Part shown: positions 5,325 to 6,048 of the stretch, piece by piece
How positions within the stretch are numbered: position 1 is the first letter of the stretch
Layout: each line of letters starts with the position of its first letter
From: Dictyostelium discoideum
Lineage: Eukaryota
NCBI GenBank assembly: GCA_000004695.1
Contig: CM000155.2
Span: forward strand, 2,592,001-2,656,000
DNA: 64,000 nt
Reading direction: 5' to 3'
Notes under the pieces: model-generated
What the model was told of the DNA's origin: nothing
The model's database searches: none
The model's input: only the letters and a program-made list of their open reading frames with translations
Position numbers and translations under genes: made by a program

Positions 5325-5911
5325 AATGAGTGGTAAAGAGATTGACATAGACCTAGATCAAGAGTAGGAAGTAATATACACTGCTCATATTGATGGGCTA
5401 AAGCAAAAATCTCCTGATACGTATAACCTGACCAATAAGTATTGCAACCAAAACTCCGAAATGAGGGATTACAATACTATCATCGAATCTGGGGAGGTAG
5501 CTTCCAAAAACCATCCGACGGCACAAAGGCCGACAGGATACCCCGGAACGGCACAAGCGAAGCCGTTGGTTAGTCACTGCAACAGTAAATGTGTGGCACA
5601 CTGGCGAGACACTTCAAGTAACGGGAAGGAGGCTGGTGCCTCTGGGCTGTCGCGCTCACACAAAGTAAGTCGATAAAAGTAAAAATATATTTAAGACGAA
5701 TGGCGAGTGAGTGGCGCGAGAGATGAGAGCGAGTGTCAGTCACGAAAGTGGCTTAAGGTTTCACCGATAGTATGAGTGGAGGTTGGGTAGTCGTCTCACC
5801 CAACTTCAAGACCCGCCATACTGTCCCCAGACGATAAAATAAAATAAGATTTAGAAAAAAGTTTGGACAAAAAAGATGTTTTAATCAAAAGTAATAATAC
5901 AATTCAAAATT

Positions 5912-5951
<40 letters not shown>

Positions 5952-6048
5952 CTAACCCCTCTTTTAGAGACCCTGTAAAAAATAAAATGAGATCTAGCAT
6001 CTCAAGGAGAAGCAACTAATAATTGCGTTATCCAATTCAAAAAAAAAA
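5325..6048 (+). mobile_element. TRE5-type non-autonomous/internally deleted non-LTR retroelement with target-site duplication
   Basis: Flanked by a 13-bp direct repeat CGTTCGTTAATAA (5312-5324 and 6050-6062). GC-rich ORF-free body. Internal A38 (5905-5945) and terminal A10 (6039-6048). Its 5' end is 46 bp upstream of the tRNA-Tyr 5' end in head-to-head orientation, the established TRE5 integration position of 48+-3 bp. Confidence 0.7.

What the first reader, a model, noticed from the sequence alone, without database searches (positions are those of the whole stretch)
5325..6048. 724-bp GC-rich ORF-free insertion with internal A38 and terminal A10
Its GC content is far above the local background. 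It has no ORF and is bounded by a perfect 13-bp direct repeat. There are two A tracts, one internal at 5905-5945 and one terminal, so the final ~93 bp (5946-6038) may be a separate 3' module. The first 500 bp could equally be read as a structured ncRNA: it has RNase P/SRP-like GC stems, e.g. GTTGGGTAGTCGTCTCACCCAAC at 5776-5798. The TSD makes a retroelement origin more likely. A non-autonomous element that is still mobilised in trans would be biologically interesting.
Basis: partly seen in the sequence, partly recalled or inferred. Interest (0 to 1): 0.55.

Follow-up and report, generated by a model that had tools for sequence, protein, structure and literature searches.

The report
ORF-less TRE5-A retrotransposon with foreign head
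This is a dead-looking, protein-less passenger copy of the Dictyostelium tRNA-targeting retrotransposon TRE5-A, made of that element's normal 3' tail joined to a 500-base GC-rich 'head' of unknown origin. The same head is attached to TRE5-A sequences at several other places in two sibling species, and the accessible literature does not describe it.

Summary
Window 5325-6048 is a discrete insertion flanked by a perfect 13-bp target-site duplication. Its first ~500 bp are 47-52% G+C in a 22.5% G+C window.

The insertion lies 45 bp upstream of a tRNA-Tyr gene, head-to-head, which is the integration signature of TRE5-A.

The 3' 222 bp are the 3' UTR of TRE5-A: the last 86 nt of the B-module, the C-module's oligo(A) (34 A, not 38), the 92-nt C-module core with its three hairpins intact, and A10. 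The internal A tract is therefore a normal TRE5-A feature.

The GC-rich head ('X', 5325-5825/6) is none of the following:
- an Rfam family
- tRNA-derived at a significant level
- protein-coding
- bacterial
- TRE5-A's A-module or its ORFs

X is a recurring module. A second full X-B'-C element sits 47 bp upstream of a tRNA-Phe gene in another D. discoideum assembly, with its own duplication. Further X copies lie next to TRE5 sequences in AX4 and in D. cf. discoideum, one of them upstream of an intact ORF1.

Best reading: an ORF-less, non-autonomous TRE5-A derivative mobilised in trans. I found no sign of current activity. It is a new variant of a known kind, and the origin of X is unresolved.

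The parts
5197..5279 (-). tRNA gene with GUA anticodon and an intron (tRNA-Tyr). It is the Pol III landmark that directed the integration. Its 5' end (5279) faces the element.
   Evidence: ARAGORN and Rfam tRNA at 57.8 bits. Reading it as Tyr with an intron is my inference from the sequence. A B-box copy (GTTCGATTC, 5159-5167, minus strand) lies 30 bp downstream of the gene.
5312..5324 (.). Target-site duplication, tRNA-proximal copy (CGTTCGTTAATAA).
   Evidence: there are only two occurrences in the window.
5325..5826 (+). Head module 'X': GC-rich (47-52%), non-coding, origin unknown. It ends ...CCGCCATACTGTC(C). This copy lacks about 13-17 nt at the 5' end compared with the L005 copy, which starts GGGCCCTGATAGTGC.
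   Evidence: Composition. No Rfam hit. No match in the full-length TRE5-A locus L004 (ORF1, ORF2), nor to the A-modules in L003, where the only X match is the 84-bp piece. Homologous X in L005 1796-2290 (93% identical without gaps). An 84-nt piece in L003 9098-9181. X-derived ORFs in AX4 and D. cf. discoideum gene models. Folding z-score is -3.1 on the + strand and -0.7 on the - strand.
5827..5912 (+). B': the last 86 nt of the TRE5-A B-module, 3'-UTR type (...ACAATTCAAAATTC).
   Evidence: Alignments with canonical TRE5-A B-C ends in L002, L003 and L004. In one search the 86 nt differ from the canonical L004 3' B-C copy at a single base.
5913..5946 (+). Internal oligo(A), 34 A: the first homopolymer run at the start of the TRE5-A C-module. 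It is 28 A at the same locus in another assembly.
   Evidence: The same run (19-35 A) sits at the same place in canonical TRE5-A copies. PMC2661138 reports that the C-module holds two CbfA sites of 14-22 homopolymeric T.
5947..6038 (+). C-module core of TRE5-A (GTAAACTAACCCC...CCAATTC). Its last 54 nt form the three hairpins reported as needed for retrotransposition. The second oligo(A) is shortened to A6.
   Evidence: Alignment. The fold is identical to the canonical copy, and the only difference (A to C) lies in a loop. Requirement for the C-module: PMC3159450, section 13.
6039..6048 (+). Terminal poly(A) tail, A10.
6050..6062 (.). Target-site duplication, distal copy.
6063..6266 (+). Context: an older, 5'-truncated 3' fragment of a different TRE5-type element (probably TRE5-B: the end of ORF2, no C-module, A8 tail). 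The X element was inserted at this fragment's tRNA-proximal edge.
   Evidence: The 60-aa translation is 89% identical to a D. discoideum protein, P0001. That protein lies at the 3' end of an RT-bearing element in L001/L005. The TRE5-B assignment is inferred from the absence of a C-module (PMC3159450).

Best explanation
The insertion is a non-autonomous, ORF-less retrotransposon copy built from two parts. The first is a ~500-nt GC-rich 5' module, X. The second is the 3' end of TRE5-A: 86 nt of the B-module, the C-module with its oligo(A), and a poly(A) tail.

Mechanism. An RNA ending in the C-module was recognised by proteins supplied in trans by autonomous TRE5-A.1 elements. The complex was brought to the TFIIIB/TFIIIC-occupied tRNA-Tyr gene. 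The DNA was nicked about 47 bp upstream of the gene, and the RNA was copied by target-primed reverse transcription. This left the 5' end of the element facing the tRNA gene, an A tail at the far end, and a 13-bp target-site duplication.

X is not unique to this copy. It is the recurrent 5' module of a small, old lineage of TRE5-A derivatives present in D. discoideum and its sibling D. cf. discoideum. In that lineage it stands where the A-module promoter and the first part of the B-module normally are. The window copy is the most reduced form, X plus the 3' UTR only.

Shown: the anatomy, the identity of the tail, the integration signature, a second independent insertion, and the recurrence of X next to TRE5-A sequences in two species.

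Inferred: mobilisation in trans, from published experiments on synthetic elements. Also inferred, and untested: that X serves as 5' leader or promoter rather than being a passively captured RNA.
For: Tail:
- Window 5827-6048 aligns base for base with the B-C ends of canonical TRE5-A copies. Those copies have the architecture ORF2 - poly(A) - B - oligo(A) - C - poly(A), in L002, L003 and L004. Their ORF2 carries RVT_1.
- The B-module is duplicated before ORF1 and after ORF2. The literature gives this as the distinguishing mark of TRE5-A (PMC3159450, PMC5006619).
- The C-module hairpins are intact.

Integration signature:
- The 5' end lies 45 nt from the 5' end of tRNA-Tyr, head-to-head, with a 13-bp duplication and an A10 tail.

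Second full copy:
- L005 1795-3260 has X, then B from about position 96, oligo(A), C and A13.
- It lies 46-47 nt upstream of tRNA-Phe and is flanked by its own 11-bp duplication, TTCATTACAAA.

Further X copies beside TRE5 sequences:
- An 84-nt piece between a TRE5-A A-A-B 5' end and a TRE5-C-like ORF2 end.
- AX4 gene model DDB_G0268912.
- Four D. cf. discoideum gene models in which X precedes that species' own TRE5-A sequences. One of them precedes an intact ORF1 that is 66% identical to D. discoideum TRE5-A ORF1.

Subfamilies: the window-type X variant is shared by the window and DDB_G0268912. The L005-type variant is shared by L005 and the four D. cf. discoideum models. Shared variants point to descent within a lineage rather than single captures.

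Feasibility of trans mobilisation: synthetic elements made of any Pol II promoter, a foreign cargo and the C-module, with no ORF1, retrotranspose to authentic sites at 0.5% of the ORF1-containing rate (PMC3159450, sections 10, 12 and 13). That fits a low copy number.
Against: - No full-length X-headed element (X-ORF1-ORF2-B-C) was seen at the DNA level. The D. cf. discoideum evidence comes from gene models, which can be spliced, as P0006 and P0009 were. Their junction positions are therefore not reliable.
- The two DNA-level X/B junctions share the same X end (...CATACTGTC plus 1 nt) but enter the B-module at different points, about position 96 in L005 and about 212 in the window. Under pure descent this needs a 116-bp deletion flush with the junction. 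That coincidence is more naturally explained if X is a discrete RNA with a fixed 3' end.
- Promoter activity of X is untested.
- Copy number could not be measured, because no whole Dictyostelium genome was searchable.
- No presence/absence polymorphism was found.
Confidence: 0.6

Rival explanations
1. Chimeric retrocopy of a cellular RNA, in the manner of U6/L1 chimeras. The TRE5-A reverse transcriptase started on a TRE5-A RNA, copied the C-module and part of the B-module, then jumped onto the 3' end of an abundant, structured ~500-nt host RNA (X) and copied it to its 5' end. On this reading each X chimera is an independent dead-on-arrival event, and X is an unannotated host non-coding RNA.
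For: - The same X 3' end is joined to two different B-module positions, with 1 unmatched nucleotide at each junction.
- There is no A run at the X/B junction.
- L005 carries the longest X 5' end seen (GGGCCC..., directly after its duplication), and the window copy lacks only ~13-17 nt relative to it.
- The L003 locus looks like a multi-template product: TRE5-A 5' end, 84 nt of X, then a TRE5-C-like 3' end.
- X folds more stably than shuffled controls on the + strand only (z = -3.1 and -2.4, against -0.7 for the - strand).
- X is rich in GNRA-type hairpins.
Against: - Two X sequence variants are each shared by several loci. This would need at least two source genes.
- X lies upstream of an intact TRE5-A-type ORF1 in D. 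cf. discoideum, which looks like a working 5' module rather than an accident.
- No free-standing X gene was seen, though that could not be searched for.
- No Rfam family matches.
Confidence: 0.27
2. A true SINE. On this reading X carries an internal Pol III promoter (a tRNA-derived head) and the TRE5-A tail recruits the LINE machinery.
For: - The architecture is head, body and LINE-derived tail.
- The L005 head has an A-box-like TAGTGCAGTGG at about +10.
- X contains TCGAATCTGG, identical to 10 nt of the T-loop region of the neighbouring tRNA-Tyr.
Against: - The Rfam tRNA model does not match either copy, even at E = 10.
- Local alignment of X to eight Dictyostelium tRNAs is no better than shuffled controls after allowing for multiple tests.
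- The A-like and B-like boxes are about 150 nt apart.
- T4 runs in B' (GATGTTTTAATC) and in the C-module (CTCTTTTAGAG) would tend to stop Pol III before the essential 3' hairpins (my inference).
- Only a handful of copies were seen.
Confidence: 0.08
3. A housekeeping structured non-coding RNA gene (RNase P, MRP or SRP) that merely sits next to A-rich DNA.
For: High G+C, many short GC stems, and a + strand folding z-score of -3.1.
Against: - No Rfam match above noise on either copy.
- The sequence is flanked as a unit by a target-site duplication, ends in a TRE5-A tail, and recurs elsewhere with its own duplication.
- The copies differ by indels of 4, 5 and 24 nt.
Confidence: 0.02
4. A solo 'A-B-C' remnant of an ordinary full-length TRE5-A, produced by recombination between its 5' and 3' B-modules.
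For: TRE5-A has two B-modules that could recombine. Tandem arrays joined at B-modules exist (L004, L007).
Against: - The 5' 500 bp bear no similarity to the AT-rich 200-bp A-module seen twice in L003 (8617-8920), nor to the first part of the B-module.
- Only the last 86 nt of the B-module are present.
Confidence: 0.02

Closest known systems
TRE5-A.2, the natural non-autonomous derivative of TRE5-A (structure AB-ORF1-BC)
   Same: It has a TRE5-A B-C 3' end with the C-module's terminal hairpins and lacks ORF2. It is mobilised by TRE5-A.1 proteins and integrates about 47 bp upstream of tRNA genes, head-to-head, with a duplication.
   Different: TRE5-A.2 keeps the A-module promoter, a whole 5' B-module and ORF1. 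The window element has none of these and instead carries an unrelated GC-rich 500-nt head.
Synthetic TRE5-A(bsr) elements 3 and 10 of Siol et al. 2011 (promoter, foreign cargo, C-module, no ORF1)
   Same: A foreign 5' part plus the C-module, with no ORFs. These were shown experimentally to retrotranspose in trans to authentic tRNA-upstream sites at about 0.5% efficiency. The window element is the natural counterpart.
   Different: The synthetic elements use a known Pol II promoter and a marker gene. Here the 5' part is a natural sequence of unknown function, and 86 nt of B-module are retained.
U6/L1 and other small-RNA/LINE chimeric retrocopies of mammals (template switching during target-primed reverse transcription; from my own knowledge)
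   Same: The 5' part has a fixed 3' end joined directly, without an A run, to 5'-truncated LINE 3' ends of variable length. The whole is flanked by one duplication.
   Different: The identity of X, and whether it exists as a free RNA, are unknown. X variants are shared among loci, and X also precedes an intact ORF1, which U6 chimeras do not do.
SINEs with LINE-derived tails, e.g. tRNA-derived SINEs that share the 3' end of their partner LINE (from my own knowledge)
   Same: A composite of head, body and partner-LINE tail, with dependence on the LINE's reverse transcriptase through the shared 3' end.
   Different: No demonstrable Pol III promoter or tRNA/7SL/5S ancestry, very low copy number as far as seen, and T4 runs in the tail.

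Membership tests
TRE5-A (DRE) non-LTR retrotransposon, canonical AB-ORF1-ORF2-BC | A-module (about 200 bp, AT-rich promoter) at the 5' end | tested here: not met
   A-modules are visible as two ~200-bp tandem copies at L003 8617-8920. BLAST of window 5280-6300 against L003 hits only B, C and the 84-nt X piece.
TRE5-A (DRE) non-LTR retrotransposon, canonical AB-ORF1-ORF2-BC | 290-bp B-module present both before ORF1 and after ORF2 | tested here: not met
   Only the last 86 nt of one B-module, of the 3'-UTR type, are present (5827-5912).
TRE5-A (DRE) non-LTR retrotransposon, canonical AB-ORF1-ORF2-BC | ORF1 and ORF2 (endonuclease, RT, zinc finger) | tested here: not met
   tblastn with TRE5-A ORF1 and ORF2 finds nothing in 5325-6048. 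The longest ORF is 71 aa and is not conserved.
TRE5-A (DRE) non-LTR retrotransposon, canonical AB-ORF1-ORF2-BC | C-module (about 137 bp, two oligo(dA) runs, terminal hairpins) followed by poly(A) | tested here: met
   5913-6048 aligns with canonical C-modules. The hairpins are preserved. The second oligo(A) is shortened to A6.
TRE5-A (DRE) non-LTR retrotransposon, canonical AB-ORF1-ORF2-BC | Integration about 47 +/- 3 bp upstream of a tRNA gene, 5' end facing the tRNA 5' end, with a variable-length duplication | tested here: met
   45 nt from tRNA-Tyr, head-to-head, 13-bp duplication. The second copy is 46-47 nt from tRNA-Phe with an 11-bp duplication.
Non-autonomous element mobilised in trans by TRE5-A | Intact 3'-terminal ~87 nt of the C-module (required in cis) | tested here: met
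   PMC3159450, section 13.
Non-autonomous element mobilised in trans by TRE5-A | At least two independent insertions with their own duplications | tested here: met
   The window locus and L005, at different tRNA genes with different duplications.
Non-autonomous element mobilised in trans by TRE5-A | Ongoing activity (insertion polymorphism, near-identical copies) | tested here: not met
   The same insertion is present at the orthologous locus of GCA_054883475.1. The copies are about 7% diverged. Only one other assembly could be compared.
SINE | Head derived from tRNA, 7SL or 5S, with an internal Pol III promoter | tested here: inconclusive
   Box-like motifs are present, but there is no covariance-model match and no significant tRNA similarity.
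SINE | 3' tail shared with a partner LINE | tested here: met
SINE | Many dispersed copies | not testable with these tools
   No whole Dictyostelium genome could be searched with DNA. Four X-bearing D. discoideum loci were seen (the window locus with its ortholog L006, L005, the L003 piece, DDB_G0268912), plus four D. cf. discoideum gene models.
RNase P / RNase MRP / SRP RNA | Match to the Rfam covariance model | tested here: not met
   Gathering-threshold and E <= 10 scans of both copies gave only noise hits.
Small-RNA/LINE chimeric retrocopy (template switching) | Fixed 3' end of the small RNA joined to variable LINE positions | tested here: inconclusive
   This holds for the two DNA-level junctions, but with n = 2 a flush deletion cannot be excluded.
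Small-RNA/LINE chimeric retrocopy (template switching) | A free-standing source gene for the 5' RNA | not testable with these tools
   No searchable Dictyostelium genome or transcriptome. Metagenome and prokaryote scans with 21-25-mers of X found nothing.

The most novel reading that the evidence does not exclude
X is an independent, conserved, ~500-nt structured nuclear RNA of Dictyostelium that no database recognises, and the TRE5-A reverse transcriptase repeatedly captured it by template switching. On this reading these retrocopies are so far the only record of its sequence. The equally novel alternative is that X-B'-C is the first SINE-like family described in a dictyostelid.
Probability: 0.2. 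Interest if true: 0.7.

Novelty: new variant of a known kind. Interest (0 to 1): 0.45.

Why it matters
TRE5-A is the best-studied model of retrotransposon targeting to Pol III genes in a compact genome. Its modular anatomy (A, B, C) has been treated as complete.

A natural lineage in which a foreign GC-rich module replaces the promoter end would be the genomic counterpart of the synthetic 'promoter-cargo-C-module' experiments. In this copy only the 3' UTR survives alongside that module. Such a lineage would show that the C-module alone suffices in nature for trans-mobilisation to tRNA genes.

It would also pose a testable question. Is X a new promoter or leader, a captured host RNA, or a proto-SINE head? 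If X is a host RNA, these copies point to an unannotated structured RNA.

For annotation, the practical point is that the region should be labelled as a TRE5-A-derived composite and not as a gene. AX4 already carries a 'hypothetical protein' model, DDB_G0268912, built on another X copy.

Tried and rejected
1. Rfam, at gathering thresholds on the whole window and at E <= 10 on 5280-6300 and on L005 1770-2320. Only tRNAs and noise were found.

2. Self-BLAST of the window. There is no second copy of X. An unmasked run was swamped by poly(A) hits.

3. E. coli genomes and plasmids, and two 21-25-mer scans each of metagenome and prokaryote contigs. There were no matches, so X is not bacterial and not vector-derived.

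4. A six-frame pseudo-protein of X against the 5.8-billion-protein index. It returned nothing. This was a false negative, because the later exhaustive HMMER scan with one X frame found five genuine relatives.

5. Two ENA proteins, P0012 and P0016, scored through 16 and 4 weak repeats. They are translated tandem repeats and were discarded.

6. tRNA ancestry of the X head. Motif resemblances to tRNA-Tyr are not significant against dinucleotide shuffles.

7. A coding reading of X. The frames are not conserved between copies.

8. Look-ups of window proteins to find orthologous loci. The RhoGEF-like 966-aa ORF, a 69-aa secreted-type ORF and the TRE3 ORF1 were not on record. The Pex14-like 748-aa protein worked and showed the insertion to be fixed, so it gave no evidence of recent movement.

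9. D. cf. discoideum locus L007. It has canonical TRE5-A organisation and no X.

10. Literature. Glockner et al. 2001 (the repeat catalogue) is not held. Searches for TRE5-A.3, a D-module, and SINEs or chimeras in Dictyostelium found no description of such an element.

11. Covariation. With only two full X sequences it is uninformative. There are 116 predicted pairs, with 1 compensatory and 6 wobble-compatible changes.

Full report
**What is there.**
Window 5325-6048 is a sharply bounded insertion. The 13-mer CGTTCGTTAATAA occurs only twice in the 64 kb, immediately before the element (5312-5324) and, after one extra G, immediately after its A10 tail (6050-6062). A match of that kind at a fixed place has a probability of about 3e-8.

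The G+C excess is real but confined to the first ~500 bp. They are 46.9% G+C, with a core of 51.8%, in a window that averages 22.5%. No other 500-bp stretch of the window reaches 42%.

The internal A run is 34 A (5913-5946), not 38. The terminal run is A10, as stated. The longest ORFs are 71, 67 and 57 aa, and they are not conserved in a second copy.

**Setting.**
The DNA is Dictyostelium discoideum; translated fragments match only D. discoideum proteins. A tRNA gene with anticodon GUA and an intron (Tyr) lies at 5197-5279 on the minus strand. The first base of the element is 45 nt from the 5' end of that gene, and the element reads away from it.

This is the integration signature described for TRE5 elements:
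- they lie ~50 bp upstream of tRNA genes;
- the orientation is always 5' end to 5' end (PMC3159450);
- 59% of genomic TRE5-A copies fall within 47 +/- 3 bp;
- non-templated nucleotides at the 5' junction are frequent (PMC5391098).

The same tRNA gene has other elements around it:
- Downstream lies a TRE3-type element. Its RT region, window 120-2300 on the minus strand, is 30% identical to TRE5-A ORF2.
- Just beyond the insertion lies an older 5'-truncated TRE5-type 3' fragment, 6063-6266.

The X element went in at the tRNA-proximal edge of that older fragment. The same preferred position was therefore hit twice.

**The 3' 222 bp are the TRE5-A 3' UTR.**
Loci fetched from other D. discoideum assemblies contain canonical TRE5-A copies:
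- ORF1 is 444 aa and ORF2 is 1047 aa with RVT_1.
- The B-module is present both in front of ORF1 and behind ORF2.
- The 3' end reads ORF2 stop - poly(A) - B-module - oligo(A)19-35 - GGTAAACCAACCCC...CCAATTC - poly(A).

Window 5827-5912 is the last 86 nt of the 3'-type B-module. 5913-5946 is the oligo(A). 5947-6038 is the C-module core. In one search the 86 nt of the B' stretch differ from the canonical L004 3' B-C copy at a single base.

The internal A tract is thus a regular part of the C-module. Footprinting mapped two CbfA sites with 14-22 homopolymeric T in the C-module (PMC2661138).

The last 54 nt fold into the same three hairpins as the canonical copy, and the only difference lies in a loop. 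Those hairpins and the terminal 87 nt are the part shown to be essential in cis (PMC3159450).

**The head (X).**
5325-5826 has no match in several places where one might be expected:
- the AT-rich 200-bp A-modules, seen twice at L003 8617-8920;
- the first part of the B-module;
- TRE5-A ORF1 or ORF2.

It also matches nothing in the wider searches:
- no Rfam family, including RNase P, MRP, SRP, tRNA and rRNA, even at E = 10;
- nothing in E. coli genomes or plasmids;
- nothing in metagenome or prokaryote contigs.

It is not coding, since its frames are broken by indels between copies. Its resemblance to tRNAs is limited to an A-box-like TAGTGCAGTGG and to TCGAATCTGG, and this is not significant against shuffled controls.

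It does fold more stably than shuffled sequence on the + strand only (z = -3.1 in the window and -2.4 in L005, against -0.7 for the - strand).

**X recurs, always with TRE5 sequences.**
A second complete element lies at L005 1795-3260 (assembly GCA_054859355.1). Its features are as follows:
- It is 46-47 nt upstream of tRNA-Phe, head-to-head.
- It has its own 11-bp duplication, TTCATTACAAA.
- Its X is 93% identical to the window's, plus indels.
- Its X starts ~13-17 nt further 5', with GGGCCCTGATAGTGC.
- It is followed by B from about position 96, oligo(A), C and A13.
- It is interrupted by a 571-bp insert with 21-bp inverted ends.

Other occurrences:
- An 84-nt X piece sits between a TRE5-A A-A-B 5' end and a TRE5-C-like ORF2 end in L003.
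- An exhaustive HMMER scan with one X frame found AX4 gene model DDB_G0268912. It carries window-type X and lies at a different locus.
- The same scan found four D. cf. discoideum gene models in which L005-type X precedes that species' own TRE5-A sequences. One precedes an intact ORF1 that is 66% identical to D. discoideum TRE5-A ORF1. The others precede ORF2 segments at 75-77% identity.

Gene models can be spliced, as two models in the fetched loci were. These four therefore show adjacency and orientation, not exact junctions.

**How it got there.**
The anatomy fits target-primed reverse transcription by TRE5-A proteins acting in trans on an RNA that ends in the C-module. This step is inferred, but it rests on direct experiments. 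Synthetic elements with an unrelated promoter, a foreign cargo and the C-module reach authentic tRNA-upstream sites. Without ORF1 they do so at 0.5% of the normal rate (PMC3159450). That low rate fits a low-copy family.

**Where X came from is unresolved.**
Evidence for a lineage of X-headed TRE5-A derivatives:
- There are two X variants, and each is shared by several loci.
- X is present in two sibling species, attached to each species' own TRE5-A.
- X lies in front of an intact ORF1.

Evidence for repeated capture of a discrete RNA by template switching:
- The two DNA-level X/B junctions use the same X end (...CATACTGTC plus 1 nt) but enter the B-module at about position 96 and about position 212.
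- There is no A run at the junction.
- The L003 locus has a mosaic structure.

I rate the lineage reading at about 0.6, the capture reading at about 0.27, and a Pol III SINE at about 0.08.

**Activity.**
The orthologous locus of GCA_054883475.1 is 99.7% identical over 10.9 kb. It carries the same insertion and differs only in the oligo(A) length, 28 against 34. Together with the ~7% divergence between copies and the transposon-interrupted L005 copy, this gives no evidence that the family is still moving.

**Comparison and novelty.**
The closest known entities are:
- TRE5-A.2, which keeps A, B and ORF1;
- the synthetic ORF1-less TRE5-A(bsr) elements;
- small-RNA/LINE chimeras;
- SINEs with LINE tails.

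The element fails the membership test for canonical TRE5-A because it has no A-module, no ORFs and only 86 nt of the B-module. It meets the tests for a TRE5-A-dependent non-autonomous element. None of the TRE5-A papers I could read mentions a GC-rich 5' module, chimeras or SINEs in Dictyostelium. The original repeat catalogue (Glockner et al. 2001) was not available, so prior description cannot be excluded. I class it as a new variant of a known kind, of moderate interest.

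Noticed in passing
window 1-5100 (minus strand): A TRE3-type non-LTR retrotransposon lies downstream of tRNA-Tyr. ORF1 is 402 aa (3773-4981) and ORF2 starts at 3776. The RT region at 120-2300 is 30% identical to TRE5-A ORF2. A 100-N assembly gap at 2700-2799 lies inside it. Pfam finds nothing in ORF1.
   Followed up: partly
window 6636-6735: A ~100-bp 5'-truncated TRE5-type fragment, 89% identical to 6109-6174 and ending in A20. It starts 47 nt upstream of tRNA-Thr(AGU) at 6517-6588 (minus strand). 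This is a second tRNA gene hit at the canonical position.
   Followed up: partly
window 5159-5167, 6431-6439, 6478-6486 (minus strand): Extra B-box copies (GTTCGATTC, and GTTCAATTC twice) lie 30-80 bp downstream of the tRNA-Tyr and tRNA-Thr genes. These are the 'external B boxes' typical of Dictyostelium tRNA genes. The Thr gene has two, inside a duplicated 14-mer TAAAGAATTGAACC.
   Followed up: partly
L005 2494-3064 (= L001 494-1064): A 571-bp AT-rich insert with 21-bp terminal inverted repeats (GGACCTATCAGTGAATAATTG) and an apparent CAATG/AATG duplication. It looks like a MITE or DNA transposon, and it interrupts the B' part of the second X element. It was not identified.
   Followed up: no
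L003 8617-9830: A mosaic element: two TRE5-A A-modules, then the B-module to about position 170, then 84 nt of X, then the last ~500 nt of a TRE5-C-like ORF2 and a C-module only 77% identical to TRE5-A's. It may be a multi-template reverse-transcription product.
   Followed up: partly
L004 1-9357 and L007 9440-10280: Full-length TRE5-A copies arranged in tandem and joined at the B-module (ORF2 - poly(A) - B - ORF1 ...), in both D. discoideum and D. cf. discoideum.
   Followed up: no
window 5913-5946 vs L006 835-862: The C-module oligo(A) differs in length between two assemblies at the same locus, 34 against 28 A. This is either polymorphism or homopolymer sequencing error.
   Followed up: partly
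AX4 gene models DDB_G0268912, DDB_G0282561, DDB_G0280833 (P0013, P0004, P0008): These 'hypothetical proteins' in the reference proteome are translations of X or of TRE5-A B/C modules, reading through oligo(A) as poly-lysine. They are likely annotation artefacts.
   Followed up: partly
window 15099-17345 (+): A single-exon 748-aa gene with a Pex14-like N-terminal motif and long Asn/Gln tracts. Its product is identical in a second assembly. It served as the anchor for the orthologous locus L006.
   Followed up: no
window 32351-33834 (minus strand): A cluster of three tRNA genes: Ala(AGC), Leu(UAA), Ala(AGC). The two Ala genes are identical. Their flanks were not examined for TRE elements.
   Followed up: no
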